Source: Planctomycetota bacterium
GTDB taxonomy: Bacteria > Planctomycetota > GCA-002687715 > DRQF01
Direction: 5' to 3'
DNA length: 64,000 nt
Assembly: GCA_036479435.1 (NCBI GenBank)
Contig: JAZGFI010000017.1
Span: 38,607 to 102,606 of the forward strand
Shown: positions 8,129 through 23,453 of the stretch, piece by piece
Layout: each line of letters opens with the position of its first letter
How positions within the stretch are numbered: the first letter of the stretch is position 1
Position numbers and translations under genes: made by a program
Notes under the pieces: generated by a model
Database searches by the model: none
What the model saw: the letters and a program-made list of their open reading frames with translations, nothing else
What the model was told of the DNA's origin: nothing

Positions 8129-8157
8129 TTGACCCTCTAGATTTGAAACTCTATGCT
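8129..8157 (+). promoter_or_regulatory. Putative sigma70 promoter of the amidohydrolase array
   Basis: TTGACC-17 bp-TATGCT in the intergenic gap upstream of the array. Confidence 0.5.
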
Positions 8158-8320: not shown

Positions 8321-10399
8321 ATGACTGCGCGTTTCGCTGCGTGTCCAACCCTTGTTTTGGCCCTTGCCCTCGTTTTGCCCTCGATCGCGTTTGCCCAACT
8401 GGGGACCCGTGAATCGACGGTCTTAGAGGGGGCGACAGTTTGGGTCGATGGCGCGATGGTTGAGAATGCCAAACTCCTGTTTAGCGGACGCCGCATCCAA
8501 GGCGTCGGAGCCAAGATCAAGCTCCCGGATGGCGTCGACGTCATCGACCTCAAGGGTAAGTTCGTCCTGCCGTCGTTTATCGACAGTTCGGCATTGATTG
8601 CTGGCATGCAGCCAGCTCGCTCGCGCAACCCCGAGCATCTGGTCATCGATAACGTCAACCTTTACCACCGCGATCCTTTCCAGGACGCGATCGAAGGGGG
8701 CGTTGGCTATCTCTACTTGAGCGGGGCTGCGAACTCCGGAGTTGGGGCGCGAGGGCTGGCATTGAAGATGCCCGGAATGAAGGTCGACAAAGTGGCCGAC
8801 CTCGTTCTTAAGGGCAGCGAATCGATGCACGTTCGCTTGGGAACCAATTCCCGCGGGCCCATTGCGCGACTTGCCGAGATCAAGAGCTTCGAGAGCTACC
8901 TCAAGAACCTAAAGACCTACCGCGAAGGCTGGGAAAAGTACCGCGAGAAGCTCAAAAAGTACGAAGAGGAACTCGCCGAGTGGGCGAAGAAGAACAAGCC
9001 GAAAAGCAAAAAGTCCGGCGGCGCGAAAAAGTCATCCGGCGCTAAGTCGAAGAGCAAGCCCAAGGCGTCACCGCGTCCGAAGTCGCCGAGTCCCGTCAAA
9101 AAACCGAAGCGTTCGCGAAGCGCCCTCGGGCTTGCAGGCTTGTCATGGCCCGGATTTGGTCTGGGGCACGACGACGATGATGATCACGAAGACCATGAAG
9201 ACCACGATGATGGCGTTGAGGTTTGCGATCTCGACGGCTGCACCATTCCCGGTCAGCACGAAATTCATCTGCACGACGATTGGGTCTTCGAATCGGAGCT
9301 CGACGGGCAAGATCACGACCATGAGCGTGATCATCTCCCAGAACAGGTTGATCCTGGTTTCGCCGCGATCTTCATCGATCCCCCGCGCCTGAAGCCCGAA
9401 TTGAGCATCATTGGCGACGGCACCGAGACTCACCTTCGCCGCCCTTTGTTGGCCAGCGAGCGGCTTGCCAATCAGAAACGTTTTTCGACTTGTCCGCATT
9501 GTGGCGCCTCCGATCCCTTGGCACCGCAGCACATCGCCCACACCAATCCCTGGCCTGTCGACGAATTCGACCGGGTCGCGGCCGAATTGGAGCAGCGCTA
9601 CTTTGAGTCCTACAGGCTCGACATGGCCCTGGCGGATCCGAAGCCCGGCGGGCCGAAGAAGCGCGGGTCCAAGTCTTCGAGCAAATCGAGCAAGTCAAAA
9701 AAGGGAGCTAAGCCAAAAAAGCCCAAGGAGCCCGGCTTCAAGCCAGCGCTGGAAGTTGCAAGCAAAGCGCTCGATGGCAAGCTCAAGGTCCGAATCGAAG
9801 TGCACCGGGCTGAGGATATTCTGGCCGTCCTCGATGTTCTCGACCGCTATCCCCTCGACGCGGTCCTGGAGGGCGTTACCGAAGGTCACTACGTGGCTGA
9901 GGCGATTGCGAAAGCAGAATTGCCGGTCGTGCTAGACGCGGCACTCGCCACTCCGATTCAAGAACAGTCCCTCGGCGCGAATCGTCGTTTGGGTCGTCTT
10001 CCCTTCCCCGCATTGCCGGGCTCCAGTCGAACCCTCTCACCAAGCCGAACGCAAAGCGATCGCGGACCTGGAGGACTGGCACGCAGAGGCATTGCTCACC
10101 GTGAAAACGCCGCCAGGTTGGTCAGGGCCGGGGTCACGGTGGTGATCTCCAGTCTTGGAGCGGGTAGCGAGAGTCTACTCGCGCGAGCCGCCTCTGCCGC
10201 AAGCCGCGGTTTGTCCCGCGCGGAAGCACTGGATGCCATTACTCGCAATGCAGCCCTGGTGCTCGGCGTCGGCGATCAGATCGGCGAATTCAGCCCTGGT
10301 CGGCTGGCTAGCTTCACCGTCTTTGATGGTGACCCTTTTCTGGCGACTAGTCGCGTCGAAAAGGTCTACATCGACGGCAAGGAAATCTACGGTAAATAG
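8321..10399 (+). CDS. Exported amidohydrolase-fold protein 1 (no HxH), large His/Asp/Cys-rich insertion
   Basis: Signal AFAQ; IDLKGKFVLPSFIDSSA; ALDAITRNAA...IGEFSPGRLASF..GDP. Confidence 0.85.
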   Translation: MTARFAACPTLVLALALVLPSIAFAQLGTRESTVLEGATVWVDGAMVENAKLLFSGRRIQGVGAKIKLPDGVDVIDLKGKFVLPSFIDSSALIAGMQPARSRNPEHLVIDNVNLYHRDPFQDAIEGGVGYLYLSGAANSGVGARGLALKMPGMKVDKVADLVLKGSESMHVRLGTNSRGPIARLAEIKSFESYLKNLKTYREGWEKYREKLKKYEEELAEWAKKNKPKSKKSGGAKKSSGAKSKSKPKASPRPKSPSPVKKPKRSRSALGLAGLSWPGFGLGHDDDDDHEDHEDHDDGVEVCDLDGCTIPGQHEIHLHDDWVFESELDGQDHDHERDHLPEQVDPGFAAIFIDPPRLKPELSIIGDGTETHLRRPLLASERLANQKRFSTCPHCGASDPLAPQHIAHTNPWPVDEFDRVAAELEQRYFESYRLDMALADPKPGGPKKRGSKSSSKSSKSKKGAKPKKPKEPGFKPALEVASKALDGKLKVRIEVHRAEDILAVLDVLDRYPLDAVLEGVTEGHYVAEAIAKAELPVVLDAALATPIQEQSLGANRRLGRLPFPALPGSSRTLSPSRTQSDRGPGGLARRGIAHRENAARLVRAGVTVVISSLGAGSESLLARAASAASRGLSRAEALDAITRNAALVLGVGDQIGEFSPGRLASFTVFDGDPFLATSRVEKVYIDGKEIYGK

Positions 10400-10400
10400 G

Positions 10401-11609
10401 ATGCCAATGATCTCGACTTCACTGTTGCCCCCTTTACGGGTCACCCGAATCGTCGTCGGCTGTGTTCTTGCGACCTTGGCTTGCGCCGTGTCGCTCTCAG
10501 CCCAAAGCCCGAGTCAAAAACCGCAGCAGTTTGCGGTGCGCGCGAAGCGCATCGTCACTGGTGCCGGTCCCGACATCATCGACGGCGTCATCTTGATTGA
10601 AAAGGGCAAGATCAAAGCCCTGGGCCAAAAGCTTGAGGTGCCCAAAGGCTGGAAAGTCATCGATCACCGCGATCGGGTGCTGATCCCTGGGATGATCGAT
10701 ATGGCCTCCCGGGCGGGCGCACCAAAAGACTTGCGCGAATCCGCGGTCGCCGTCGACTCCAGAACTTGCGCGCTAGACGCGGTGGCATTGGATCACCGCG
10801 ATTTCGCGATGCTGTGCGAAGCGGGAATTACCGCGGTTGGCGTTTTGCCCGAGCGTCGCAACGCCTACAGCGGTCAAGGATGTGTGCTCAAGACGGGATC
10901 GGCGTACCAAAAGCGAGTCGTTGAGGTGCACGGTCCGGTGATGATGACTCTTGATGCATCCGCCTACAGCCGGTTGCGAATGCCAGCGTCCTACATCGGG
11001 CTCATCAAGCTGCATCGCCTTATCCTGGAGACCGCGAAGGGCGGCCGCGCCGGTCCGTCCTTGGTGGGCCTAGCGAGAGGTAAACGCAAGGGCGTTTTGT
11101 ACGCGCGCACCGAGCAGGCACTCAAGGACAGTCTTAAACTCAAGCGCAGATTTGATCTCGACATCACCTTGATGGCTGCCAATGCGATCCGCCGCGTGGT
11201 GGATGAGTTTGCCAACTCCGGAATGCGTGTGGCCCTACTGACGCCGACTTTTCGGAGCGGCAAGCGCAGGTTGACTTTGCCCGCGCTACTCGAGAAGAAG
11301 GGGATTCAGGTCGTCTTCTACGCGGACACTCCGAATCTTGCGCCCGCAGGCCTAAGGCTGGGGGCCGCGCTCGCGGCGCAGAACGGCCTGGGGCGTCGTG
11401 CGGCGCTTGCCTCGATCACCTCCGGGCCGGCGGAAGCGCTCGGCGTCGCCGCTCGCATCGGCAGTCTGGCTGTCGGCAAAGATGCGGACTTCGTCGTACT
11501 GAGCGCCGACCCCTTCGATTTTTCTGCCGCGGTCATCGAGACCTGGGTGGACGGTCGTCGTGAATACCGCAAGAAACCTAACGCGAAGAAGAAGGAGCTC
11601 GCGCCATGA
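10401..11609 (+). CDS. Exported amidohydrolase-fold protein 2 (no HxH)
   Basis: Signal LSAQ; LIPGMIDMAS; RIGSLAVGKDADFVV; ATG 1 nt after the previous stop. Confidence 0.85.
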   Translation: MPMISTSLLPPLRVTRIVVGCVLATLACAVSLSAQSPSQKPQQFAVRAKRIVTGAGPDIIDGVILIEKGKIKALGQKLEVPKGWKVIDHRDRVLIPGMIDMASRAGAPKDLRESAVAVDSRTCALDAVALDHRDFAMLCEAGITAVGVLPERRNAYSGQGCVLKTGSAYQKRVVEVHGPVMMTLDASAYSRLRMPASYIGLIKLHRLILETAKGGRAGPSLVGLARGKRKGVLYARTEQALKDSLKLKRRFDLDITLMAANAIRRVVDEFANSGMRVALLTPTFRSGKRRLTLPALLEKKGIQVVFYADTPNLAPAGLRLGAALAAQNGLGRRAALASITSGPAEALGVAARIGSLAVGKDADFVVLSADPFDFSAAVIETWVDGRREYRKKPNAKKKELAP

Positions 11610-12877
11610 GGCTCGGCCAACTCGCCGCTATGATGACCACTCTTGTTTTGTGGTCGGCTCTTTCCAGTCTCCTCGGCGCCCAGCAGACCCTGGCGATCAG
11701 CGCCGAAAAAATCTACGTCGGGGACGGGACGATCATCGAGAAGGGCGTCATCATTGTCAGTGGCGGCAAGATCCTTGCGATCGGGCCGGGATCTCAGATT
11801 GAGATCCCACGCGGCACGCGACGCCTTCGGGTTCGAGGCAGCGTGACACCAGGTTTCATTGATGCCGCCGCCGATGCTCTGCTGGGGGCGTCAAAAGACG
11901 AACAATCGTCAGAAGTAACGCCTGAAGGACGCGCCATTGACGGCTTGGATTTCGGTTCGTTGTTGATGAAGCGGCTGGCTCGTGAAGGCGTGACCACGGT
12001 CTACGCGACCGCCGGAAATTCCGCGGTCATCACGGCGCAAGGTGCCACAGTTAAGACCGGGACGGGCGACGTTCAGAACCGTATCCTGACTCGTGATGGG
12101 GCGCCGAAGCTGGTACTCATATCGGGGCCGGAAAGGGGCAACGCTCGACCCCGAAACCCCGCTGGCATTAGCGATTTCACTCGCCTCCCCTTGGGGCGAA
12201 TGGGCGGCATTTTCGTGGCACGAAGCGCTCTCGGTCAGGCAAAAGATCGGCTTCGGATCGCGAAGGCTGGCGGCAAAGTCGCCAAGAACGCGGCCTTTGA
12301 TGTGCTCGGCGAAGTCTTGTCCGGCAAGCGACGCATGCGGGTTTTGGCGCGACGTCAAAACGAAGTCTCGACGGCTTCGAGGCTCGCTAAAGAGTTCGGG
12401 TTTTCCTACGTCATCGAGCAGGGCAACGAAGCCTACAAGAACATCCGGGAGCTAAAGCGCGACCACGCGGCGGTCATTTACGGTCCCATGAGATCTTCGA
12501 GCCCCTCGATGGCCGGAGTCTCGCGACAATTACGACGCTTTTTCACTGATCCCAACTTGAACAAGATACTCTCGACCCCCCGCGTCCTCATCGATGCGAA
12601 GATCCCTACCGCGTTGACCGCGGGAGGGAATACGGGAGAGTACGGCCTCGCGCGGCAAGCGATGCTTGCGATGCGTTGCGGTCTTTCGCGCGCCGAGGCT
12701 TTAGCGGCGGTGACCACGGTCCCAGCCCAGTTGCTCGGGGTCCAGGACCGAGTGGGAACTTTAAAAGTGGGGCGCGACGCCGACCTGATCGTGTGGTCTG
12801 GCGAGCCTCTTGATGCCACCAGTATTCAAAGCCACGTCTTTATTGGCGGGCGTCGTGTTGCGGGGAAAGTCTTTTGA
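11606..12877 (+). CDS. Exported amidohydrolase-fold protein 3 (no HxH)
   Basis: ATGA overlap with previous gene; signal LGAQ; TPGFIDAAA; RVGTLKVGRDADLIVWSGEP. Confidence 0.88.
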   Translation: MRLGQLAAMMTTLVLWSALSSLLGAQQTLAISAEKIYVGDGTIIEKGVIIVSGGKILAIGPGSQIEIPRGTRRLRVRGSVTPGFIDAAADALLGASKDEQSSEVTPEGRAIDGLDFGSLLMKRLAREGVTTVYATAGNSAVITAQGATVKTGTGDVQNRILTRDGAPKLVLISGPERGNARPRNPAGISDFTRLPLGRMGGIFVARSALGQAKDRLRIAKAGGKVAKNAAFDVLGEVLSGKRRMRVLARRQNEVSTASRLAKEFGFSYVIEQGNEAYKNIRELKRDHAAVIYGPMRSSSPSMAGVSRQLRRFFTDPNLNKILSTPRVLIDAKIPTALTAGGNTGEYGLARQAMLAMRCGLSRAEALAAVTTVPAQLLGVQDRVGTLKVGRDADLIVWSGEPLDATSIQSHVFIGGRRVAGKVF

Positions 12878-12927
12878 ATTTCCGCAACTCACCATTAGCA
12901 CAAGCGAACCCATCCACGGGAGTTTCG

Positions 12928-14418
12928 ATGATGATCCGGCTTTTCGCGACCACGGCGGTGTTGGTCTTAGCAGTTTGCACCACAACGTGGGCTCAGTTCA
13001 CGGATAAGGTCCTCATTGAAGGGGCCAAGATCATTCCTGTCGTCGGCGATGTCATCGAGAAGGGCAACATCCTGATCGAAAACGGCAAGATCGTCGCCGT
13101 CGGAGTTGACGTTAAGGCGCCTTTTGATGCCAAGGTCATCGACGCTAGCGGGAAGACCGTCTTTCCGGGCATGATCGATCCCTATACATCTAGCGGCCTC
13201 GACATTCCCAACGAAAGCGTGCCGGTGGCGTCATTCGTCCGCGTTGCGGACGCGATCGACCCTTCGGCTCGCTACTTCGAGAATGCCCTGCGCGGTGGTT
13301 TGACCTCAATCCACATCGCACAGGGCGCGAATGCGGTCATTAGCGGCGTGACGCGCGTCGTGCGGCCCATCGGTATGATGGTCAGCGAGATTACCGTTGA
13401 AGCCGAAGGCGGACTCGGCATTGTTTTCTCGGCGGCGGGAGGGCGCGACGTCGCGGGCCAGCTCGCGACCTTGCGCGGCACTTTTCGCAGTTTTGACCGC
13501 TACCTGAAACGTTTGGCGGAAAAACTCTACGAAGAGGAACAGAAAAAAGACGGCGGCGAAGTTCGAGTCGGGCCGAAAGAAGCGCGCAAACTCGGCGCGA
13601 AGTTGATCAAGCCGAGCAAGATCGAGGATCGCTACCGTAACCTCTGGCGCATTCGGCATGGTGAGCTCGATGTCTATGCCCATTGCTCGCGAGCCATGGA
13701 TGTTCAGACGGCTTTGGATTTCGCCAAGGCTCAGGGATTTGCGGATAACATGACGATCGTGCTCGGTTCGGAAACTTTCAAGGCTGTGCGTCGCCTGAAG
13801 AAGCTCTCTCGTCCGGTCATCTTATCCAAGAGTCAGTTCGTTCACCGTGAAGCCGATCGAATGACACAGGAGCCGATCGACACCTTCGTTCCCGATGTGC
13901 TGATGAAAAACGGAATTGAGTTCGCGATCGCCGGTAGTGAAGAACCCTGGTACGAAGCGGCCCGATTGGTCCGCAACGGGATTCCTCGCCAAAAAGCTCT
14001 TGAGGCGATCACTCTCAATGCCGCGAAAGCCATCGGCCTGGGAGCACGCTTGGGCTCGATAGAGCCGGGCAAGGACGGAAACATCCTGATTCTCAGCGGC
14101 GACCCTCTCGACACGATGACTTGGGTCGAACACGTTTTCATCGAAGGGCGCCACGTTTACGACAACAAAAAGGACCTTCGATTGCGCCACCTTTTGCAAG
14201 GAGCCTTTGACACGAAGTTGGCCGCAGACAAGAAATCGGCGGCGGCGCTCGAGGCCAAAAATGCCAGGGCTGACAAGGAAGCCAAGGCAAAGACCGACGA
14301 AAAATCTAAGGCAAGCAAAGGCGACAAGCCCGCTAAGAGTGACGAGAAGTCCAAGGCCGATTCGAAACCGTCTGACGCCAAGAAGTCACCGGCTCCTGCC
14401 GGTGGCTCGAAGAACTAG
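12928..14418 (+). CDS. Exported amidohydrolase-fold protein 4 (no HxH), Lys-rich C-terminal tail
   Basis: GGGAG RBS; signal TWAQ; FPGMIDPYTS; LGSIEPGKDGNILILSGDP. Confidence 0.88.
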   Translation: MMIRLFATTAVLVLAVCTTTWAQFTDKVLIEGAKIIPVVGDVIEKGNILIENGKIVAVGVDVKAPFDAKVIDASGKTVFPGMIDPYTSSGLDIPNESVPVASFVRVADAIDPSARYFENALRGGLTSIHIAQGANAVISGVTRVVRPIGMMVSEITVEAEGGLGIVFSAAGGRDVAGQLATLRGTFRSFDRYLKRLAEKLYEEEQKKDGGEVRVGPKEARKLGAKLIKPSKIEDRYRNLWRIRHGELDVYAHCSRAMDVQTALDFAKAQGFADNMTIVLGSETFKAVRRLKKLSRPVILSKSQFVHREADRMTQEPIDTFVPDVLMKNGIEFAIAGSEEPWYEAARLVRNGIPRQKALEAITLNAAKAIGLGARLGSIEPGKDGNILILSGDPLDTMTWVEHVFIEGRHVYDNKKDLRLRHLLQGAFDTKLAADKKSAAALEAKNARADKEAKAKTDEKSKASKGDKPAKSDEKSKADSKPSDAKKSPAPAGGSKN

Positions 14419-14430
14419 GAGCGCCCTGCG

Positions 14431-17253
14431 ATGTTAAAGGCAAGCTCCTGGATGATGGTGCTGTGTGCCATCGCGCTTCTCTGGCCGGTCGAGTTCGGAA
14501 GCGCAGCGCAAGCTGGCGACGATGAAACGGGCCGCCCGGCGCAAGACTACGCCGTGCGTGCGCGTCGGATTTACGTCTTGGACAAAGTTGACTACCTCGA
14601 AGACGCTTGGATGATCATTCGCGGTGGCAAGATCGATTCTTTAGGCACCGGCGCGATTCCTGACGCTGATTTGCCGGTGGTTGATTTTCGGGGGGCGAGT
14701 TTGCTCCCGGGATTGGTTTCGACGGAAAGCCGGATTTTCGTCGGTGCCGATGCCACGGGGATGGGTGCCCGTTATGTCGCGGCCGACAAGTTCAATCCCT
14801 ACGCAAATTTTCAGGCGAGTTGGCGACACGGCGTCACCACGGCTCGCCTCACTTCGCCCGGCCGACGTTTTGTCTCCGGTATCGGTTCCGTCGTGCGATT
14901 CGGCGCGAATGCCGAGGATTCAACGGTTCTGGTTCGCCAGGCTGATTTGACGGTGAACTTCAATGACGAAGCGGGGCGCGGCGAGAGCCCTGATGCCGAA
15001 CTCGTAACGCCGAGTTCGATGGACGTTCCTTACCGGCCCGCCGAACGTCGTCGCCCCGAGACACGCCTCGGCCGCATCTTGGCACTCGAGACGCTCCTGC
15101 GTGATGTACGGGTGGCGAAAAACCAAGACGAACCCAGCTTGAAGTTGTTGGCCTTGGGAGAATTCCTCGAGTCGGGACGCCCGTTTCGATTCGATGCCGA
15201 GCGCCGTGGCGATATTTTGCAGGCGCTCGAGGCAGCCAAAAGAAACGGTTTGCCGATCTATCTCGCCGGTGCCACCGAAGCTCATGCTTTGGTGGACGAG
15301 ATCGCCGCCGCAAAAATCTCGGTTGTTGTCGACTTTGACAATGCGCTTCCCGATCCGAGCTTCAATGGTTTTGACCCGGTAACGCCCATCATTGAGGACG
15401 ACCGTACCGCCGCCGTTTTGGAGAACCGCGGGGTGCGCGTCATCATTGGCGGCCACAGTGACGACTTGCTCATGAGTGCGGCGCTCGCCGTCAAAGGCGG
15501 CATGACCGAAGGGGCCGCTCTGCGGGCCGTCACCGCACGTCCCGCGGACTTGTTGGGAGTTGGAGACCGCGTTGGTCGCCTCAAAGCGGGCATGGACGCC
15601 GATTTTGTGGTCATCAATGGTGACCCCTTGGGCACAAGTTCACGCGTTCAGCAGGCCTGGGTACTCGGTTCGCAGGCTTGGAGTTTGGCGGCCGTCGACA
15701 AGATGCCCGAGGCCGTGGTGGTTCGGGCCGGGAAGATCTATGACGGCAAGGGTGGCGTTTATTTGGACGCCGAAGTGTTGATTGAAGACGGCAAGGTTGT
15801 GGCTGTCGGACATCGAGTGCAGCGACCGGCCTACGCTCGCATGCACGACGCTGGCCCCGAGGCCGTGATCACTCCGGGATTCATTGATATCCACAGCACC
15901 CTTGGACTTGAAGGCGACAGCAGTACGGTCAAATCAGACCAAAATCTGAGCAAGTTGTTTTCAAGGGCTCGCCCAGAGTTTGCGGCCGTCGCGCGCGCCG
16001 GGATCACGACCGCCGTCGTCGCACCGGGGAAGGGATCGTCCAGCGGCTCACCGATCATCGCCATCAAGACCCAGGGAAAAAACCGCAAGGAGCTGATTTC
16101 GAAAGCTGCCGCCGGAGTGAAGCTTACCGTGAGAGGAAGCGGCGCCAGCGTGTTGAAGAGTCTGGAGTCGACACTGAACTCAGCTGACAACTACCACAAA
16201 AAGTGGCTCAAGTACGAAGCAGAGTTGGCCGCTTTCGAAGCCGCGAAGAAGAACGGCAAGCTGCCGAAGGCCGCAGCTCCCAAAGGCAAAACTCCTCCCA
16301 AAGTCAGCCCCAAGCCCAGCGCAGAGGCCAGCGACGCTTTGAGCGGCACCTGGGAAGCGACTCTCAGCGGAGGGCCCATGGGCGAGCCGATGAAGCTCAC
16401 GATGCGCCTCGCCTTAGAAGGGACTGACTTTACTGGCACGGTTACCGACCCCTTCGGTGGCAGCCAGGACGCGCCCATTACGGGTACCTTTGATGGGACG
16501 ACGTTCGAAGCAAAAGTCGAGCCCGAAGATGCGCCCTTCGAAAACGTTCGCGTCACCGCGAAAATGACGGAGCCTGAAGTGCTGAAAGGTAGCGTTGATG
16601 TCGATGGCATTTTCGAGATCGATCTCAGCGCAAAACGGACCTCCAAGGGCAAACCCAAGATCACCGTAAAGCGAGCGGTCACGGCTGTCGCTAGCGGACC
16701 AAAAGGCCCGAAGAAACCGAAGTACAGCGCGCGATTCGAGCCCTTTCGCAAAGTCCTCAGTGGCAAAGCGGGGATCATGGTCGCGGCAACCGGAGCCGAA
16801 GCTGTCGGTGCCGTGGTGCAGGCCTTTGGCAAACGTAAGTTGCCGGTCGTGATCCTCGGCGGGGCAGGGGCACACGAAGTGCTGGATAAGATCGATGGTA
16901 ACTCGGTTGGCATCGCGATCTGGCGCCAGTACACCCGCCAGGATAAGGCCCGCAATATCTTAATCCCCGACGAACTCGATCGCGCTGGCGTTTCGCCCTT
17001 GTTCCAGAGCAACGGCTCTTGGGGAGCGTCTCGATTGCCGCGTTTCGTTCGCGCGGCGGTGCGGGAGGGACTCAATCCTGAAACGGCGTTGCGGTCTTTG
17101 ACCTACGACGCGGCCCGTTTGATGCGCATGGACGATTCGGTCGGTTCTCTCAGTCGAGGATGCGATGGTGACTTGTTGATATTCGACGGCGAGCCTTTTG
17201 ACGCTCGTACCAGCTTGGTCGAAGTCTTGATTCGTGGAAAGGAAGTCCAATGA
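14431..17253 (+). CDS. Exported two-domain amidohydrolase-fold protein 5 with inserted beta domain
   Basis: AGGAG RBS; domain 1 LPGLVSTES...VGRLKAGMDAD; domain 2 TPGFIDIHST...VGSLSRGCDGD; insert LSGTWEATL... Confidence 0.88.
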   Translation: MLKASSWMMVLCAIALLWPVEFGSAAQAGDDETGRPAQDYAVRARRIYVLDKVDYLEDAWMIIRGGKIDSLGTGAIPDADLPVVDFRGASLLPGLVSTESRIFVGADATGMGARYVAADKFNPYANFQASWRHGVTTARLTSPGRRFVSGIGSVVRFGANAEDSTVLVRQADLTVNFNDEAGRGESPDAELVTPSSMDVPYRPAERRRPETRLGRILALETLLRDVRVAKNQDEPSLKLLALGEFLESGRPFRFDAERRGDILQALEAAKRNGLPIYLAGATEAHALVDEIAAAKISVVVDFDNALPDPSFNGFDPVTPIIEDDRTAAVLENRGVRVIIGGHSDDLLMSAALAVKGGMTEGAALRAVTARPADLLGVGDRVGRLKAGMDADFVVINGDPLGTSSRVQQAWVLGSQAWSLAAVDKMPEAVVVRAGKIYDGKGGVYLDAEVLIEDGKVVAVGHRVQRPAYARMHDAGPEAVITPGFIDIHSTLGLEGDSSTVKSDQNLSKLFSRARPEFAAVARAGITTAVVAPGKGSSSGSPIIAIKTQGKNRKELISKAAAGVKLTVRGSGASVLKSLESTLNSADNYHKKWLKYEAELAAFEAAKKNGKLPKAAAPKGKTPPKVSPKPSAEASDALSGTWEATLSGGPMGEPMKLTMRLALEGTDFTGTVTDPFGGSQDAPITGTFDGTTFEAKVEPEDAPFENVRVTAKMTEPEVLKGSVDVDGIFEIDLSAKRTSKGKPKITVKRAVTAVASGPKGPKKPKYSARFEPFRKVLSGKAGIMVAATGAEAVGAVVQAFGKRKLPVVILGGAGAHEVLDKIDGNSVGIAIWRQYTRQDKARNILIPDELDRAGVSPLFQSNGSWGASRLPRFVRAAVREGLNPETALRSLTYDAARLMRMDDSVGSLSRGCDGDLLIFDGEPFDARTSLVEVLIRGKEVQ

Positions 17254-18506
17254 TCGCACGCCCGATTGGATCACCCCTCATCGCTCTTGTCGCGGCCCTA
17301 GTCTTTGTGCTCGCGTTTGCGTCGCCAGGTATGGCGCAGGAGAAGCTGGCGCTAATGGCCGGCAAAGTCCTGACGATGGACGAAAAGGACACGGTCTTAA
17401 ACAACGTCATCGTCTTTTTGAAGGACAGAAAGATCGAGAAGATCATCCCTCAGCGTGGAGCCGTGATCCCCGCTGACTACCGGGTTATCGATCACCGCGA
17501 CAAGTGGCTCGTTCCGGGTCTTATCGATCCGCACAATCACACCTCGTCGGAGGAATTCGGCAGTCTCGTCGGTGAGTTCGGGTCGCTCACAAATCCGGGC
17601 CTTCGCGCCTTGGATCTCGCCATGCCCCGAACTGAGAGCAACATTCGCTCTTTGGCCGGTGGTGTCACTACGGTGCTGTTGATTCCGGGTTCGGCGACGA
17701 ACCTGGGTGGTTTTGGCGTCGTTGCACGTGTCGGCTGTTCCGAGATGGACGACTTTATCTTGAAGGAAATCGGATCGGTGAAGATCGCTCAGGCTGGCAA
17801 CCCGGAGCGCTTTTACTTCCGCAAAGGTCGTAGTTACATGAACTACAACCTGCGCCAAACCTTGCAGAAGGCCAAAGACTATCACGAGGCTTGGAATCGT
17901 TTCGAAAGCAAAAAGTCGAAAACACAGCCCAAGTTCGACGCGCACTGGGAGTCTTTTCGAGGGCTCTTTCGACGGACTTTTCCGGCCAGCGTTCACACTC
18001 AGATCTATCAGGTGGTGCACGCCTCTATCGCGATGCTGTCGGACGAGTTCGGCATCAAACTCATGATTGACCACGGCACTTTTGATGGCTACAAGCTCGG
18101 CAAGCAAGTTGCAGAGCGAGGTATTCACGCGATGATCGGGCCGCGCATGTGGTGGATGGACCCCGTGGATCGCACGATCAACGGAACGGCCGCCGGCTAT
18201 TGGAAAAACGGTGTCAAGAAGATCGGATTGAACACCGACGCCGGAGTGTTGCCCCAAGAAGACCTTCCGATGCAAGGCGCGATGTCCGTGCGCTACGGTT
18301 TCGACACCTACGCGGCGTTGAAGGGCATGACCTATTGGGCCGCAGATTCTCTGGGATTAGCCAATCGCATTGGCTCCCTGCAGCCCGGCTTTGACGCGGA
18401 CATCGTCGTGTGGTCGGGCAACCCTATCGATTTTCGTTCCAGCGTCGACAAGGTCTACGTTTTGGGAAGCGAAGTATACAACGCAGACGAACGGCGGATC
18501 TATTGA
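17250..18506 (+). CDS. Exported metal-dependent amidohydrolase 6 (metal ligands intact)
   Basis: ATGA overlap; signal GMAQ; PGLIDPHNH, VKIA (Lys), VHTQ, DHG, NTDAG. Confidence 0.9.
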   Translation: MIARPIGSPLIALVAALVFVLAFASPGMAQEKLALMAGKVLTMDEKDTVLNNVIVFLKDRKIEKIIPQRGAVIPADYRVIDHRDKWLVPGLIDPHNHTSSEEFGSLVGEFGSLTNPGLRALDLAMPRTESNIRSLAGGVTTVLLIPGSATNLGGFGVVARVGCSEMDDFILKEIGSVKIAQAGNPERFYFRKGRSYMNYNLRQTLQKAKDYHEAWNRFESKKSKTQPKFDAHWESFRGLFRRTFPASVHTQIYQVVHASIAMLSDEFGIKLMIDHGTFDGYKLGKQVAERGIHAMIGPRMWWMDPVDRTINGTAAGYWKNGVKKIGLNTDAGVLPQEDLPMQGAMSVRYGFDTYAALKGMTYWAADSLGLANRIGSLQPGFDADIVVWSGNPIDFRSSVDKVYVLGSEVYNADERRIY

Positions 18507-18551
18507 GATGCCGTGGTACTGTGATCTGCAAACAATCACGCGGAGTATGTC

Positions 18552-20063
18552 GTGAGTAGATTGATTGTTGGGATGGTGGCCTTGGTCTTTGTGATCGGCA
18601 CCGCCTTTGAGTCTGGGGCTAGCAACCTTATGCAAGGACGGGCGGAGGTTGCGCACAGCATTCCGCTGGCCTTCGATGCCAATGCTGAGAGTGGCCGCAC
18701 TGTCTTTGATGACGACATGGTCGTCGTCAAGGCTGGCAAAGTCATTACGCTCGCGGGTGAAGCCCTAAAAGACGTCACGATCGTCATCCGCAACGGCAAG
18801 ATCGAGGCCATTGGCGAGAACGTGGACTATCCCTTTGGGACCAAAGTCATCGACGCCACGGATCTCACGGTCATGCCGGGGATGATCAATCCCTTGTCGC
18901 GCCTGATTCGCAACGGATCAGGCGGGGGTGTGACGCCGAATCGTACCCAAGCTTCCAGCTTCCGGGGCAAGCCTGAGGATCTAGAGTCGATCGCCTACGC
19001 GGGCTACACCACGCTTGGAATCGTACCGCCTGGTTCGGGGATTCCCGGCCGCGTGATGGTGCTGAAGACGGGTGGTACGAGCCGCGAAGACCTTATCGTT
19101 CAAAACGAGGGAGCGGTACTCGTCACTTTCAACAGCCCCGGCAACGACAAGAGCCGTATCCTGCGTGCCTTCAAGTCGGCGCAAGGTGAGCTCGACAAGA
19201 TCGAGAAGGCTCGCAAGGCTTTTGACGCGAAGAAGAAAAAGGGGTCGAAGAAGAAGCCGACCCCAAAACCGAGCCCTAGGCCAACACCAAAGCCGAAACC
19301 CAAGCCAACACCGAAGCCGACGCCGAAGCCCAAACCTGGTCCCACTCCAAAGCCCAAACCAGGCCCGAAGCCTAAGCCCAAAGGCGGTGCCTCGAGCGGG
19401 ACTTTTAAGGCCCCCAAGATCAACCCCTTATACGCGCCCTTGGTGGACCTCATTCAAAAGAAAGAGGGTGCCACGGCCATCGTCGAGTTTGGAATGAGTC
19501 CCTATATGGTCTGGGCACCGTCGACGTCAGCGAGTAGTTCGTTCCTCCATTGGGAGGAGATACCCAAGACCTATGATTTTCGACATGCCTATCGGATCCG
19601 GAACAGCGTGGTGAAGCGCAACAGCGCCTTCAACGTTCGCCCGGAATCGGACCTGCACTTGGTAGCCGAAAAACTCGGCAAGGAAAAAGCTCTCATCGCG
19701 ATCTTCCCGGTGACGAATCACTTTCCCTACACCAAGGACAAGTTCAACCTCGGCCTGTTGCTGCATAGCAAGGGCTGTCGGGTGGTCTTCTTGCCTGAGA
19801 TGGAAACTTGGAGTTCGTATGCGGCGATGCGTGAGAACATCGCACGTATGGTTCGGAATGGATTTCCGCGCGACGAAATCTTGAAGACTGTAACTTTGCA
19901 CGCGGCAGAGATGTTGGGTCTCGAAAAGCGCCTCGGTTCGATCGAAGTCGGCAAGGACGCCAACTTGCTGTTCTTGACGGGTGACCCCCTCGATTTCAAC
20001 TCGACGGTCGCGAAGGTCATGGTCGAAGGCAAGATCGTAAAAACGAAAGCGCGCTTGCGCTAG
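18552..20063 (+). CDS. Exported amidohydrolase-fold protein 7 (no HxH), Pro-Lys repeat insertion
   Basis: GGAG RBS plus GTG; MPGMINPLSR; LGSIEVGKDANLLFLTGDP. Confidence 0.85.
   Translation: MSRLIVGMVALVFVIGTAFESGASNLMQGRAEVAHSIPLAFDANAESGRTVFDDDMVVVKAGKVITLAGEALKDVTIVIRNGKIEAIGENVDYPFGTKVIDATDLTVMPGMINPLSRLIRNGSGGGVTPNRTQASSFRGKPEDLESIAYAGYTTLGIVPPGSGIPGRVMVLKTGGTSREDLIVQNEGAVLVTFNSPGNDKSRILRAFKSAQGELDKIEKARKAFDAKKKKGSKKKPTPKPSPRPTPKPKPKPTPKPTPKPKPGPTPKPKPGPKPKPKGGASSGTFKAPKINPLYAPLVDLIQKKEGATAIVEFGMSPYMVWAPSTSASSSFLHWEEIPKTYDFRHAYRIRNSVVKRNSAFNVRPESDLHLVAEKLGKEKALIAIFPVTNHFPYTKDKFNLGLLLHSKGCRVVFLPEMETWSSYAAMRENIARMVRNGFPRDEILKTVTLHAAEMLGLEKRLGSIEVGKDANLLFLTGDPLDFNSTVAKVMVEGKIVKTKARLR
19230..19383 (+). 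repeat. Low-complexity Pro-Lys/Pro-Thr coding repeat
   Basis: KKKKGSKKKPTPKPSPRPTPKPKPKPTPKPTPKPKPGPTPKPKPGPKPKPK. Confidence 0.85.
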
Positions 20064-20099
20064 GCGTTGGCCTCGATGGCTAGACGCAAACAGGAGCTA

Positions 20100-21686
20100 A
20101 TGGTGAAAACCCCTTACGTGATGCGACTCGCAGTCTTTTGGTGTGCGACTTTTTTGATCGCCGGTGCCCTTGTCGCCCAAGCTGGCGGAAGCAAGCCGAC
20201 GAAATCGGCCAACGCTCCGGCGAAAGGCGAAGAGAAAAAGGACGACGACGACAAGAAGAAAGATCGCTGGTTGCACATTCACAACGTGGATGTGTATCCC
20301 GTGGCCGGACCGATTCGGCGCCGCGCGGAGATTCTCGTCAAGAACGAGAAAATCGAAGCGATCGGCCGCAATCTTGATGTTCCAGAAGACGCCGAAAAAT
20401 TAGACGGCATGGGATTTCGCGCCTATCCCGGCCTGGTCGCCCTCAATGGATCGGGCATCGTTCCGCGCGCGAGCGGCAAGATCGAAGACACTTCGCATCC
20501 GAGCGGTCTTTGGAACATCCTCGCGTTGGCCCATGGCATCACCACGGTGATCACGGGGACGACGGCGGTGAAAGTCCAGATGGACTCCATCGAAAACTAC
20601 GTCCTGCGTAAAAGCCTCTACCTTGCCATGGCGTATTCCGCCCGCAATCCGCGCGCGAAAGTGCAGCTGCGATCTGACCTCCGCAAGGCTTTCAACTTTC
20701 TTCGTCAAAAGCGTAGCGGCGAAAAGAAAAGTGCCAAAACTACGAAGTCGAGTGCAAAGGGTGGAGCTAAGTCCGCGAGCTCGAAGAAGCCCAAAAAAGC
20801 AGCGTCGGCTCAAAAACAGCTGGGGGGCGCGGCTCGCTACCTTCCCCTGTTGGAAGGCAAGACCACCGCGGTCTTCAACGTCTCCTCAACTCAGGAGATC
20901 CGCGACGTTTGCGACTTGGTGCGAACTTTTGGTTTCCGAACTGTCATTCGCGGAGCGGTACACGGGTGGACCGTGCCTGGCGACATGGGACGAGCGGGCG
21001 TGATGGCCATTGTTAGTCCTCGCGACCGTGATGACCCGGATGATGGACTCAACCGACCCACGGGTTCGACGGTGGCCAACGCCGCGATCTTGCACCAGCA
21101 CGGTGTCCGCGTTGCCATTTCTTCGATCGGCAATACCGTTGACCTGGACGGTAGTCCTGGACGCGATGCTGTTTCACTTGCCTTTGACGCGGGTGCCGCT
21201 GTCGGCGGAGGGTTGCCCAATGATGAGGCGATTCGCGCCATCACCCACACCGCTGCGCAGTGCTATCAACTTGACGATCGTGTTGGTTCGCTCGAAGTCG
21301 GCAAGGACGCCGATATTATCATTGTCGACGGCGAGCTTTTGCATTACGCCACCCATGTGCAATGGGCGATCGTAAACGGCAAGCTTTGCTACGACAAAGA
21401 GAAAGAATCGCTGTTGAGGTCGATCCGATCGCGCAACCCGAAGAAGGAAAAAGACAACGCGCCCTGGTGGCCGCGCCCCTTCGCGGAAATGCCAGACTCA
21501 TGGACTTACGATCCCGCCAAGGTCGCCGCTGAACGCGAAGCCGCGAAGAAGAAGGAAGACGGCGAGAAAAAGGGTGACGAGAAAAAAGAGCCCGAAGACA
21601 AAAAGCCCGCCGACGCCAAGGACAAGGGCGACGACGACAAGGCAACGAAGGAAAAAGCCAAAGGCGACAAGCCCGTCAAGGGCTAG
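20100..21686 (+). CDS. Exported amidohydrolase-fold protein 8 (no HxH), Lys/Asp-rich termini
   Basis: AGGAG RBS; signal LVAQ; AYPGLVALNG; RVGSLEVGKDADIII. Confidence 0.85.
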   Translation: MVKTPYVMRLAVFWCATFLIAGALVAQAGGSKPTKSANAPAKGEEKKDDDDKKKDRWLHIHNVDVYPVAGPIRRRAEILVKNEKIEAIGRNLDVPEDAEKLDGMGFRAYPGLVALNGSGIVPRASGKIEDTSHPSGLWNILALAHGITTVITGTTAVKVQMDSIENYVLRKSLYLAMAYSARNPRAKVQLRSDLRKAFNFLRQKRSGEKKSAKTTKSSAKGGAKSASSKKPKKAASAQKQLGGAARYLPLLEGKTTAVFNVSSTQEIRDVCDLVRTFGFRTVIRGAVHGWTVPGDMGRAGVMAIVSPRDRDDPDDGLNRPTGSTVANAAILHQHGVRVAISSIGNTVDLDGSPGRDAVSLAFDAGAAVGGGLPNDEAIRAITHTAAQCYQLDDRVGSLEVGKDADIIIVDGELLHYATHVQWAIVNGKLCYDKEKESLLRSIRSRNPKKEKDNAPWWPRPFAEMPDSWTYDPAKVAAEREAAKKKEDGEKKGDEKKEPEDKKPADAKDKGDDDKATKEKAKGDKPVKG

Positions 21687-21701: not shown

Positions 21702-22298
21702 ATGACCGGGAACGTTCCCTTTGTACACGCCACCGCCCTGGTTGAAGAGGGCGCACACCTCGGGGCTGGCTGCAAAATCTGGCACCAAGTTCACATCATG
21801 GCGGGGGCTTGGATAGGACCCAGGGTCGTGATTGGCAAGAACGGGTTCGTCGCTTCGACAGTGGTAGTCGGCGAGAGTTGCCGCATTCAGAACAACGTGT
21901 CGCTTTACGATGGCGTGACTTTGGGCGCTGGGGTCTTTGTGGGACCGTCCGCGGTTTTTACCAACGTCAAGCGTCCGCGGGCCCGATTTCCGCGCCGGGA
22001 CACCTACGCTGAGACGCGTGTTGACGACGATGCCACCATCGGAGCCAACGCGACGATTCTGTGCGGCACTCACATCGCCGAAGCTGCGATGATCGCGGCG
22101 GGAGCCGTGGTGACCTGTGATGTACCGGCCTTTTGCCTGGTCGGTGGAGCGCCCGCTCGGCGCATGGGCTGGGTTTGTCGCTGCGGAGAAGCGCTTGTGG
22201 TCCGGGACGATGATTCTGATCATGAGGTCAGTTGTGACGAATGCGGGCGCGACTATTCGTTTTCGCATCGCCATTCATTGATGTCGGAATTGAAGTAA
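21702..22298 (+). CDS. Hexapeptide-repeat sugar N-acetyltransferase (WbpD/WlbB-like) with C-terminal Zn ribbon
   Basis: KIWH, IQNNVSLYDGV, GPSAVFTNV, IGANATILCG, GWVCRCG...CDECG. Confidence 0.85.
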   Translation: MTGNVPFVHATALVEEGAHLGAGCKIWHQVHIMAGAWIGPRVVIGKNGFVASTVVVGESCRIQNNVSLYDGVTLGAGVFVGPSAVFTNVKRPRARFPRRDTYAETRVDDDATIGANATILCGTHIAEAAMIAAGAVVTCDVPAFCLVGGAPARRMGWVCRCGEALVVRDDDSDHEVSCDECGRDYSFSHRHSLMSELK

Positions 22299-22313
22299 AC
22301 CGATCACTGTTTT

Positions 22314-23453
22314 TTGATCCCGGAGCCGAGCTTGGATGCCATCCCTTTTATCGACCTGAAAGCACAGTACGCCGGGACCAAAGATCAGGTTCGCGCCGTG
22401 GTTGATGCCGTTTTCGAAGATCAGGCTTTCATTCTCGGTGAGACCGTCTCCAGATTTGAAGAAGACTATGCGGCTTGGCTGGGTTTGCCGAAAGGGAGCG
22501 CGGTGGGAGTGTCCTCCGGGACCGACGCGCTGCTTGTTACGCTCATGGCGCTCGGGGTCGGACCGGGTGACAAGGTCCTAACCACGCCCTTCAGTTTCTT
22601 TGCGACGGCGGGGGTCATCGCGAGGCTGCACGCAACGCCGGTGTTTGTCGATATCGATCCGATCACGTTTAATCTCGACCCTGCCGCCCTGAAAGGGCTC
22701 GATCCCGAAGATTTTAAAGCCCTCATTGTCGTGCATCTCTACGGTCGCTGTGCTGACATGCGGTCGATCCGAGACTGGGCGGATGCGTCGGGCTTGCCGC
22801 TAGTAGAAGACGCGGCACAGGCTGTCGGTGCCAAAGATGAGGGAGGTGCGCCGGTTGGTGGCTTGGGGCGTGCCGCCTGTTTCTCTTTTTTCCCCACCAA
22901 AAATCTTGGTGCTGCAGGTGACGGCGGCTGTGTCACTTCTCTAGATCCTGAGTTCACATCGAAAATCCGTGCCTTGCGCACGCACGGTGCGGTCCGCCCC
23001 TACGACAGCGACATCATTGGCGGCAACTTCCGTTTGGATGCTCTTCAGGCCGCCGTACTCGGCGCGAAGCTTCCGTTTTTAGACGACTGGAATCGGCGAC
23101 GGCTCGAGAACGCCGCCGCCTACAACCAGTATTTCCGCGATCGCGGTCTTGAGGGGCGGATGGGCCTGCCGGAGCTTCCGCTTGACGACAGCTACGTGGC
23201 ACATCAATACGTGCTGAGATTGCCGAACCGAGATGAGGTTGCCGCAAAGTTGGCGGAGCAGGGCATCGGATGTGCGATTTATTATCCCAAGCCGCTACAC
23301 CTCATGGATTGCTTTTCGCGGCTGGGGTACGCAGAGGGCTCTCTCCCCGAGGCTGAGCGGGCGTCTCGGGAGGTCTTGGCGCTGCCCATTTTTCCCGAGC
23401 TTGGGCAAAAACGCCACCGGCGGGTCGCGGAGGCGGTCGCCGCCCTAGTTTGA
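22314..23453 (+). CDS. DegT/DnrJ/EryC1/StrS PLP aminotransferase (WbpE-like)
   Basis: IPFIDLKAQY, SGTDAL, EDAAQA, SFFPTKNLGAAGDGG, GNFRLDALQAA. Confidence 0.92.
   Translation: MIPEPSLDAIPFIDLKAQYAGTKDQVRAVVDAVFEDQAFILGETVSRFEEDYAAWLGLPKGSAVGVSSGTDALLVTLMALGVGPGDKVLTTPFSFFATAGVIARLHATPVFVDIDPITFNLDPAALKGLDPEDFKALIVVHLYGRCADMRSIRDWADASGLPLVEDAAQAVGAKDEGGAPVGGLGRAACFSFFPTKNLGAAGDGGCVTSLDPEFTSKIRALRTHGAVRPYDSDIIGGNFRLDALQAAVLGAKLPFLDDWNRRRLENAAAYNQYFRDRGLEGRMGLPELPLDDSYVAHQYVLRLPNRDEVAAKLAEQGIGCAIYYPKPLHLMDCFSRLGYAEGSLPEAERASREVLALPIFPELGQKRHRRVAEAVAALV

What the first reader, a model, noticed from the sequence alone, without database searches (positions are those of the whole stretch)
8321..21686. 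Array of 8 exported amidohydrolase paralogues (9 domains) with one catalytically intact subunit
Seen: eight consecutive same-strand genes after a candidate promoter, with gaps of about 50 bp or less and two ATGA overlaps, all with signal-like N-termini. After PGxID the HxH site reads SSA, MAS, AAA, PYTS, STES, IHST, PHNH, PLSR and ALNG. Only gene 6 (17250-18506) has the full HxH/K/H/H/D ligand set. Known: these residues bind the metal centre, and some amidohydrolases (e.g. ochratoxinase) are homo-octamers. Inference: the paralogues are intact, highly diverged and apparently translationally coupled, which fits a stoichiometric hetero-oligomeric periplasmic particle with one catalytic and many structural or recognition pseudoenzyme subunits (analogous to the proteasome or CCT). 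I know of no characterised example.
Basis: partly seen in the sequence, partly recalled or inferred. Interest (0 to 1): 0.88.

Follow-up and report, generated by a model that had tools for sequence, protein, structure and literature searches.

The report
Conserved operon of mostly dead amidohydrolases
A planctomycete genome carries a tightly packed eight-gene operon encoding nine exported copies of one enzyme fold, of which only one can still bind its catalytic metals, and the same layout recurs across a large branch of the phylum, which suggests an undescribed multi-subunit periplasmic hydrolase.

Summary
Window 8321-21686 has eight co-directional genes (nine modules; gene 5 is a double). All pass Pfam's Amidohydro_1 and Amidohydro_3 cut-offs and all have hydrophobic N-termini. 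There are two ATGA overlaps. Only gene 6 has the HxH/K/H/H/D set.

- The order g1-g8 recurs in 62 distinct related loci.
- Each position forms its own clade in the trees.
- g6 and g8 co-occur in 82 of the 86 sampled genomes of the phylum that have either.
- All eight genes are under purifying selection (median dN/dS 0.07-0.16).
- The ligand columns of the dead modules drift among orthologues, so no substitute metal site is kept.

The nearest solved relative is PDB 3OOQ, an uncharacterised Thermotoga amidohydrolase with 10 chains, described as having dihedral symmetry.

"One catalytic subunit" is lineage-specific: other families carry 2-4 intact g6 copies beside the same eight dead modules. One genome splits the array between g5 and g6.

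Physical assembly remains inferred. The one complex prediction gave no verdict, no RNA data were found, and the substrate is unknown. Six literature searches found no description. Four earlier notes from this scan report the same array in other genomes.

The parts
8129..8157 (+). sigma-70-like promoter candidate (TTGACC-17-TATGCT) in the 352-nt gap upstream of g1
   Evidence: 1 site found against a mean of 0.1 in shuffles. This is a consensus match only.
8321..10399 (+). g1: exported dead amidohydrolase module, 692 aa. Carries a large insert at the helical insertion point: K/P/S-rich linkers at aa 208-273 and 433-489, and a His/Asp-rich CxxC segment at about aa 281-410.
   Evidence: Ligand columns read S,L,H,E,-,L. 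dN/dS 0.16.
10401..11609 (+). g2: exported dead module, 402 aa
   Evidence: Ligand columns read A,R,M,Y,A,D. dN/dS 0.16.
11606..12877 (+). g3: exported dead module, 423 aa; its start overlaps the g2 stop (ATGA)
   Evidence: dN/dS 0.15.
12928..14418 (+). g4: exported dead module, the best conserved of the dead ones (47 columns at least 95% identical). Has a K-rich C-terminal tail. Alternative start TTG 12874.
   Evidence: dN/dS 0.08.
14431..17253 (+). g5: exported double module, 940 aa. g5a is about aa 1-425 and g5b about aa 426-940; both are dead. g5b carries a long helix, a disordered K/P linker and a beta-rich insert of about 100 residues (aa 639-738).
   Evidence: AF2 model pLDDT 87.2, pTM 0.75. 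Best fold match 3ooq, TM 0.78 by target. dN/dS 0.09.
17250..18506 (+). g6: the only catalytically intact module, 418 aa (H95, H97, K178, H249, H275, D330). Its start overlaps the g5 stop (ATGA).
   Evidence: All six ligands present in 61 of 61 orthologues. E 5e-50 to PDB 3ooq. dN/dS 0.07.
18552..20063 (+). g7: exported dead module, 503 aa, with a Pro/Lys-rich linker at aa 212-296
   Evidence: dN/dS 0.12.
20067..21686 (+). g8: exported dead module, 539 aa, with a K-rich linker and an acidic/basic C-terminal tail. The start is probably ATG 20076.
   Evidence: dN/dS 0.12.

Best explanation
The eight genes are one ancient, vertically inherited functional module of a large clade of Planctomycetota; the titles of the related records name Phycisphaerae and allied lineages. 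The module encodes nine exported modules of the 3OOQ-type amidohydrolase fold. g6 is a working enzyme, most likely binuclear with a carboxylated lysine, and of the COG1228-like dipeptidase / carboxypeptidase / N-acyl-amino-acid hydrolase kind. The other eight modules are pseudoenzymes kept for their fold and surfaces. The most likely mechanism is that they are made together from one transcript with translational coupling and assemble in the periplasm into a hetero-oligomer derived from a homo-oligomeric ancestor. In that assembly the dead modules would hold fixed structural or substrate-handling positions around one or a few live g6 subunits. Shown: homology, loss of ligands, conservation of order, orthology of each position, co-occurrence, purifying selection, natural fusions. 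Inferred: export, co-transcription, physical assembly, chemistry and substrate.
For: (1) The order g1-g8 is the same in 65 of 97 fetched loci (62 distinct). Most of the other 32 are cut by contig ends.
(2) Neighbouring genes overlap by 4 nt very often. For g5 to g6 this holds in 59 of 65 loci, though the start codons were picked by a rule that favours tight packing.
(3) Each of the nine positions is one side of a branch in an IQ-TREE tree of 67 rows: 9 label changes, the minimum possible; SH-aLRT 96-100 for seven positions, 73 for g2 and 39 for g1. A FastTree tree of 103 rows gives the same grouping.
(4) In one sample of 301 genomes of the phylum, g6 orthologues occur in 84 and g8 orthologues in 84, with 82 shared. 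Families are all-or-none: f1 5/5, f3 7/7, f8 8/8, f24 8/8, against f7 0/16, f15 0/17, f28 0/11.
(5) dN/dS in nine close pairs has medians of 0.07 (g6) to 0.16 (g1, g2).
(6) g6 keeps all six ligands in 61 of 61 orthologues. The same columns are variable in the other modules.
(7) Natural fusions exist. g5a-g5b is fused in every complete array, and g1-g2 is fused in L012. In the window's own genome a separate live+dead tandem pair (L098) is orthologous to one fused 878-aa protein in G025.
(8) The nearest solved relative, 3ooq, has 10 chains in its entry and is labelled as a dihedral assembly in a figure legend of bioRxiv 10.64898/2026.08.06.736029. Many other matches are entries with 8 chains.
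(9) The flanking genes are not conserved beyond the family, so the array itself is the conserved unit.
Against: No result here shows contact between any two of the proteins. The number of live g6 genes varies from 1 to 4 among lineages while the dead set stays at eight. That is hard to fit to one closed particle with fixed 1:1 stoichiometry. In one genome (G307) g1-g5 and g6-g8 lie on different contigs, so linkage between g5 and g6 is not obligatory. Nine modules match neither the 8 nor the 10 chains seen in related crystal entries. Export rests on a hydropathy heuristic only. The operon may run on into two unrelated genes, because there is a 15-nt gap and no terminator-like site directly after g8.
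Confidence: 0.55

Rival explanations
1. The genes form a co-regulated toolkit without a stable complex. The dead modules would be separate periplasmic ligand-binding proteins that use the old substrate pocket to capture or sort different substrates, or to hold polyanions with their K-rich loops. g6, perhaps as a homo-oligomer like 3OOQ, would do the hydrolysis.
For: g6 copy number varies from 1 to 4 independently of the eight dead modules. The array is split between g5 and g6 in G307. The dead modules differ strongly from one another (20-24% identity to g6), as expected if each recognises something different. Five of the eight proteins carry K/P/S-rich disordered segments.
Against: The former pocket residues drift among orthologues, which is not what a conserved ligand site would show. 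The strict order, the 4-nt overlaps and the obligatory g5a-g5b fusion are more typical of subunits of one assembly. The statement that operon order tracks assembly order is recalled from Wells, Bergendahl and Marsh 2016 and was not read here.
Confidence: 0.25
2. Some of the 'dead' modules are still enzymes that use a different, non-canonical site (mononuclear, metal-free, or a new pocket). On this reading the operon is a multi-step or multi-substrate pathway.
For: g4 is nearly as constrained as g6: dN/dS 0.08, with 47 columns at least 95% identical, many of them Asp, Glu, Arg or Asn. Most g4 orthologues keep the first His (47 of 62) and the Lys (54 of 62). Most g5b orthologues keep the second His (50 of 61).
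Against: No module other than g6 keeps more than two of the six ligands in most orthologues. The window's own g4 has Tyr and Gly at the two positions that its orthologues mostly keep. No other catalytic family was detected in these proteins by Pfam or NCBIfam.
Confidence: 0.1
3. The dead modules are maturation or control factors for g6, acting only transiently. They might deliver metal through the His/Asp-rich g1 insert, act as chaperones, or inhibit g6.
For: g1 of this family carries a His/Asp-rich segment with a CxxC motif, shared with L001-L003. This is reminiscent of His-rich metallochaperones, a comparison made from recall.
Against: The His-rich insert is confined to a few lineages and is absent from most g1 orthologues (g1 length ranges from 243 to 870 aa). 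Eight different paralogues are far more than known maturation systems use.
Confidence: 0.07
4. The dead copies are decaying duplicates without function.
For: Loss of the metal ligands.
Against: All are intact ORFs in 62 distinct loci. dN/dS is 0.08-0.16. The orthologous clades span families whose g6 proteins are only 35-45% identical.
Confidence: 0.01

Closest known systems
PDB 3OOQ, 'amidohydrolase from Thermotoga maritima MSB8' (structural-genomics entry; no function given in its title)
   Same: It is the best sequence match of g6 (E 5e-50, residues 59-412, all six ligands aligned). It is also the best fold match of the g5 model (TM 0.78 by target, against about 0.5 for other amidohydrolases). 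It has the same helical insertion after the lysine strand. The entry has 10 chains and is called dihedral in a figure legend.
   Different: It is a single cytoplasmic-type protein built from one kind of subunit. Here nine diverged exported paralogues, eight of them without the metal site, are encoded together.
COG1228-like amidohydrolases with known substrates: Caulobacter Cc2672 Lys/Arg carboxypeptidase (3MTW), the prolidase-like 3FEQ/3N2C, isoaspartyl dipeptidase (1ONW, 5LP3) and the ochratoxin-degrading amidohydrolases (8IHQ)
   Same: Same superfamily and same HxH/K/H/H/D ligand type as g6. Several are deposited with 8 chains or as ring assemblies. They suggest that g6 cleaves a peptide-like or N-acyl-amino-acid amide bond.
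   Different: Scores lie far below family cut-offs: NF051886 gives 34-89 bits against a cut-off of 500, and HutI gives 30-60 against 298. All of these are homo-oligomers of active subunits.
Amidohydrolase-fold pseudoenzymes that serve as structural subunits: the inactive dihydroorotase-like PyrC' of Pseudomonas aspartate transcarbamoylase, and the CRMP/dihydropyrimidinase-like proteins that form hetero-tetramers (recalled; the start of the abstract of the CRMP-4 paper PMC4051505 was seen in the listing)
   Same: Same superfamily, loss of the metal site, retention under selection, and a role through oligomerisation.
   Different: Those are one dead paralogue with an unrelated enzyme, or all-dead cytosolic tetramers. 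None is an operon of eight distinct dead paralogues with a live one, and none is exported.
Hetero-oligomers of paralogues with active and inactive members in fixed positions: the eukaryotic 20S proteasome and CCT/TRiC (recalled)
   Same: Many paralogous subunits, each an orthologous clade. Only some are catalytic. They derive from homo-oligomeric ancestors.
   Different: The fold is unrelated, and they are eukaryotic and cytosolic. Assembly of the array here has not been shown.

Membership tests
Amidohydrolase superfamily (Pfam Amidohydro_1 PF01979 / Amidohydro_3 PF07969) | Significant match to the family profiles above the curated cut-off | tested here: met
   All 8 proteins score 35-79 bits against a cut-off of 25, and 32-66 bits against 29.7. 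The Pfam matches cover mainly the N- and C-terminal parts.
Amidohydrolase superfamily | Full-length (beta/alpha)8 barrel with a flanking beta-sandwich | tested here: met
   hhalign of each module profile against the g6 profile gives probability 100 over 355-393 columns. The g5 model has pLDDT 87.2, and its top fold hits are all amidohydrolases. Only g5 was modelled.
Catalytically competent binuclear amidohydrolase (HxH, carboxylated Lys, His, His, Asp) | All six metal ligands present: g6 | tested here: met
   H95, H97, K178, H249, H275 and D330 are invariant in 61 of 61 orthologues and aligned with 3ooq. Metal content and lysine carboxylation cannot be tested here.
Catalytically competent binuclear amidohydrolase | All six metal ligands present: g1, g2, g3, g4, g5a, g5b, g7, g8 | tested here: not met
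   No module has the set in the window. The columns are variable among orthologues.
Caulobacter-type Xaa-Pro dipeptidase (NCBIfam NF051886) and imidazolonepropionase HutI (TIGR01224) | Score at or above the curated equivalog cut-off | tested here: not met
   The best scores are 89 bits against 500 and 60 bits against 298.
Pseudoenzyme | Catalytic residues lost while the gene is kept under purifying selection | tested here: met
   loss; median dN/dS 0.08-0.16 in nine close pairs; intact in 62 distinct loci.
Fixed-position hetero-oligomer of paralogues (proteasome / CCT kind) | Each subunit position is its own orthologous clade and the subunits co-occur | tested here: met
   (nine clades). (g6 and g8 together in 82 genomes, one alone in 4, neither in 215 of 301).
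Fixed-position hetero-oligomer of paralogues | The subunits physically assemble | not testable with these tools
   The one complex job gave no verdict (see Tried and rejected). The only indirect support is from natural fusions and the oligomeric state of relatives.
Fixed-position hetero-oligomer of paralogues | Fixed stoichiometry | tested here: inconclusive
   The eight dead modules are constant, but g6 is present in 1 to 4 copies in different families.

The most novel reading that the evidence does not exclude
The array builds a ring-type periplasmic particle descended from a 3OOQ-like dihedral homo-oligomer. Eight positions have become fixed, non-exchangeable dead paralogues. The remaining catalytic positions are filled by g6, either as a homodimer where there is one gene or as paralogue pairs or isoforms where there are 2-4 genes. 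This would be a bacterial, extracytoplasmic counterpart of the proteasome/CCT route from homomer to obligate heteromer. To my knowledge (recall, not checked here) it would also have the largest number of distinct paralogous subunits in a bacterial enzyme. Lineages with two g6 genes have exactly ten modules, the number of chains in the 3OOQ entry.
Probability: 0.25. Interest if true: 0.9.

Novelty: new variant of a known kind. Interest (0 to 1): 0.78.

Why it matters
If the nine modules assemble, this would be a natural bacterial case of a homo-oligomeric enzyme turned into a many-paralogue hetero-oligomer that is mostly made of pseudoenzymes. It comes with dozens of sequenced lineages that differ in the number of live subunits. 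That would make the evolution of obligate heteromers and the roles of pseudoenzymes directly testable. Even without assembly, it is a conserved, strongly selected, completely uncharacterised exported system. It is present in about a quarter of the sampled genomes of the phylum (84 of 301), and its substrate may bear on how these marine and sediment bacteria use organic nitrogen.

Tried and rejected
Complex prediction of g5b (aa 426-940) with mature g6, using my own alignments A2 and A3: no verdict (score 0.00, controls not run). It counts neither for nor against binding.

Long open frames around g6 in other genomes (869-1948 aa) were checked as possible g6 fusions. Domain matches show that they are over-extended reading frames or frameshifts, not fusions. 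The g4-g5 'fusion' in L049 lies in a locus with 197 N and was not counted.

A scheme of sister-paralogue pairs (g1/g8, g2/g5a, g4/g7) that would suggest a pentamer of dimers: only g4+g7 recurs in both trees (support 95 and 88). The other pairings change between FastTree and IQ-TREE, so the scheme was dropped.

Conserved neighbours as a clue to function: none. The best flanking cluster occurs in 14 of 62 loci and looks like a housekeeping gene.

Literature: six searches gave nothing on this array. Only listings and the starts of abstracts were seen, plus one figure-legend passage of bioRxiv 10.64898/2026.08.06.736029. Its supplements were not seen, so the subunit number of the 3OOQ assembly is my inference from 10 chains plus the label 'dihedral'.

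Atlas look-up of g8: only generic automatic names (amidohydrolase, imidazolonepropionase family, hypothetical).

The second structure job, the homologue searches in the large protein sets and the metagenome scan were not used.
Full report
**What is in the window**

Between 8321 and 21686 the + strand carries eight consecutive ORFs:

| Gene | Coordinates | Note |
|---|---|---|
| g1 | 8321-10399 | |
| g2 | 10401-11609 | |
| g3 | 11606-12877 | |
| g4 | 12928-14418 | a TTG at 12874 is an alternative start |
| g5 | 14431-17253 | double module |
| g6 | 17250-18506 | |
| g7 | 18552-20063 | |
| g8 | 20067-21686 | gene callers seem to prefer the ATG at 20076 |

The overlaps g2/g3 and g5/g6 read ATGA. 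The other gaps are 1 to 50 nt. A sigma-70-like site (9 of 12 positions) lies at 8129-8157 in the 352-nt gap before g1. No terminator-like site follows g8 directly, and a hexapeptide transferase gene starts 15 nt later.

All eight proteins pass Pfam's cut-offs for Amidohydro_1 and Amidohydro_3, and g5 matches twice. In NCBIfam the best model for five of the eight (g1, g5, g6, g7 and, in effect, g4) is the Caulobacter Xaa-Pro dipeptidase, at 34-89 bits against a cut-off of 500. No specific family is reached. All eight N-termini have a hydrophobic segment. So do 48 to 63 of about 63 orthologues per position, against 2 to 21 of 63 for an internal control segment. This is a heuristic, not a signal-peptide prediction.

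**One live module, eight dead ones**

g6 matches PDB 3OOQ at E 5e-50 over residues 59-412. In 61 of 61 orthologues it has H95, H97, K178, H249, H275 and D330.

I built ortholog alignments for every position and aligned each profile to the g6 profile. All eight other modules align with probability 100, E 1e-59 to 1e-73, over 355-393 columns, at 20-24% identity. They are therefore full-length copies of the same fold.

None has the ligand set. The window reads:

| Module | Residues at the six ligand columns |
|---|---|
| g1 | S,L,H,E,-,L |
| g2 | A,R,M,Y,A,D |
| g3 | A,-,K,L,Q,N |
| g4 | Y,S,G,H,L,- |
| g5a | E,R,T,D,-,- |
| g5b | H,T,K,A,G,N |
| g7 | L,R,L,E,N,M |
| g8 | N,-,A,N,R,D |

Among orthologues these columns are variable. 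The partial exceptions are the first His and the Lys in g4 (47 and 54 of 62) and the second His in g5b (50 of 61). No conserved substitute metal site shows at the old positions.

An AlphaFold2 model of g5 from 57 sequences has mean pLDDT 87.2 and pTM 0.75. It shows two barrel modules. In g5b it also shows a long helix, a disordered linker and a beta-rich insert of about 100 residues. Its best fold match is 3OOQ (TM 0.78 by target, 24% identity). The next entries are other amidohydrolases with TM (by target) of about 0.45-0.6.

**Conservation**

g6 orthologues were found in all 22 genomes searched of the same order and in 5 of 18 from other families of the phylum. I fetched 17 loci around them and 80 more from the species-level genome collection.

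Of these 97 loci, 65 (62 distinct, since three are the same contigs fetched twice) carry eight ORFs in the order g1 to g8, each best matching its own window position. Of the other 32:

- Most are cut by a contig end or by my fetch limit, and show the expected part of the order.
- Several that my strict rule rejected are complete arrays when labelled with profile HMMs (L011, L061, and L049; L044 is cut in g7).
- L010 has three g6 copies and L013 has two.
- L012 has g1 and g2 fused.
- L016 and L017 are lone distant relatives.
- L095, and probably L078, hold only g6-g8.

For L095 the g5 orthologue and upstream paralogues lie on another contig of the same genome. The array there is split between g5 and g6.

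The 4-nt overlap is the commonest junction at five of the seven junctions (g2, g3, g5, g6 and g8; 25 to 59 of 65 loci). For g5 to g6 it occurs in 59 of 65 loci. My rule for choosing starts favours tight packing.

Flanking genes are shared only within the window's family. No neighbour is found in more than 14 of 62 loci.

**Phylogeny and co-occurrence**

In an IQ-TREE tree (LG+G4, short search, 67 rows) each of the nine positions is one side of a branch. SH-aLRT is 96-100 for seven positions, 73 for g2 and 39 for g1. The ten labels need 9 changes, the minimum possible. A FastTree tree of 103 rows agrees.

Rows left out were all representatives other than the window, L004, L005, L009, L010, L016, L017, L032, L072 and L098. 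Among positions, only g4+g7 is a stable pair (95 and 88).

In one sample of 301 genomes of the phylum, g6 orthologues (E at most 1e-55) occur in 84 and g8 orthologues (E at most 1e-22) in 84. Of these, 82 have both. G140 and G218 show g6 only; in G140 the array sits on a 7-kb contig. G275 and G180 show g8 only; G180 is borderline at 6e-23. Families are all-or-none, which fits vertical inheritance in one large clade.

**Selection**

In nine independent close pairs of loci (g6 identity 88-99%), Nei-Gojobori dN/dS medians are:

| g1 | g2 | g3 | g4 | g5 | g6 | g7 | g8 |
|---|---|---|---|---|---|---|---|
| 0.16 | 0.16 | 0.15 | 0.08 | 0.09 | 0.07 | 0.12 | 0.12 |

(dS is above 1 in one pair, and in one gene of a second pair, so these values are rough.)

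g6 is the slowest-evolving position (median identity to the window 0.44, with 66 columns at least 95% identical). g4 follows (0.42, 47 columns). g1 and g2 are the fastest (0.28 and 0.27).

In 13 further or re-examined loci, all 25 g6-type copies carry HHKHHD. Arrays hold 1, 2 (L013, L099, L103-L105, L107, L108), 3 (L010) or 4 (L106) of them. Where the locus is complete, the eight dead modules are each present once. The design is 'eight dead plus one to four live', not 'eight plus one'.

**A smaller parallel**

The window's own genome has a second tandem pair on contig C10 (L098). C10a has all six ligands and C10b has none. Their orthologues are the two halves of one 878-aa protein in G025 (L017). 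Both fall in the clade that also holds g6. Pairing of a live with a dead copy, and their fusion, therefore recurs in this subfamily.

**Interpretation**

Several things are what one expects of subunits of one assembly:

- the fixed order and the coupling;
- the obligatory g5a-g5b fusion and the g1-g2 fusion in L012;
- near-perfect co-occurrence;
- purifying selection on copies whose pockets have decayed.

The nearest solved relative is deposited with 10 chains and is called dihedral in a figure legend. Many other relatives are deposited with 8 chains. I therefore put the hetero-oligomer first, at 0.55.

Against it stand the variable number of g6 genes, the split array in G307, the mismatch of nine modules with 8 or 10, and the absence of any direct evidence. 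The main rival (0.25) is a co-regulated set of separate periplasmic proteins.

The chemistry of g6 is inferred from the ligand type and from its distant relatives (Cc2672, prolidase-like enzymes, isoaspartyl dipeptidase, ochratoxin amidohydrolases). The substrate is unknown.

**Novelty**

Six full-text searches found no description of the array. Four earlier AI notes of this scan describe the same array in other genomes and reach the same reading. They are not independent evidence, but their claims on order, on 3OOQ and on one to four live copies were reproduced here.

The fold and the idea of pseudoenzyme subunits are known. An operon of eight distinct dead paralogues around a live one is not known, as far as these searches show.

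Noticed in passing
G000 contig C10, L098:423-1631 and L098:1745-2953 (outside the window): A second tandem pair of 3OOQ-type amidohydrolases in the same genome. The first has all six ligands and the second has none. Their orthologues are fused into one 878-aa protein in G025 (L017:3798-6431).
   Followed up: partly
window 9161-9550 (g1 aa 281-410): An Asp/His-rich segment (13 His and 4 Cys in 120 residues) with a conserved DGTE-x-HL motif and a C-x-H-C-G motif. It is shared with L001-L003. L004 and L024 keep the DGTEP and CxxC motifs without the His-rich stretch. L032 has a His-rich stretch of its own, and the segment is absent from most other g1 orthologues. It may bind metal.
   Followed up: partly
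window 16345-16644 (g5 aa 639-738): A beta-rich insert of about 100 residues inside the g5b barrel, after a 37-residue helix and a disordered Lys/Pro linker. D635, G639 and W641 are nearly invariant among orthologues. The insert was not searched on its own.
   Followed up: no
window g1 aa 208-273 and 433-489; g4 aa 433-497; g5 aa 593-636 and 733-767; g7 aa 212-296; g8 aa 210-260 and 480-522: Lys/Pro/Ser-rich low-complexity segments sit at the same helical insertion point, or at the C-terminus, in five of the eight proteins. g2, g3 and the live g6 have none. They could bind polyanions or act as spacers.
   Followed up: no
window 21702-23453: A hexapeptide-repeat transferase gene and a DegT-type aminotransferase gene follow g8 after gaps of 15 nt each, on the same strand. 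No terminator-like site lies between g8 and the first of them. They may share the transcript, but they are found next to the array only in the closest relatives (7 and 6 of 62 loci).
   Followed up: partly
L095 and G307:C75:18339-28785 (L109-L111): In one 10.1-Mb genome the array is split. g6-g8 stand alone with 9.5 kb of unrelated DNA upstream, and g5 with upstream paralogues lies on another contig.
   Followed up: partly
window 631-3765, minus strand: A 1044-aa ORF combines ECF-type sigma-70 regions 2 and 4 at the N-terminus with three carboxypeptidase-regulatory-like domains. This is an unusual architecture for a sigma factor.
   Followed up: no
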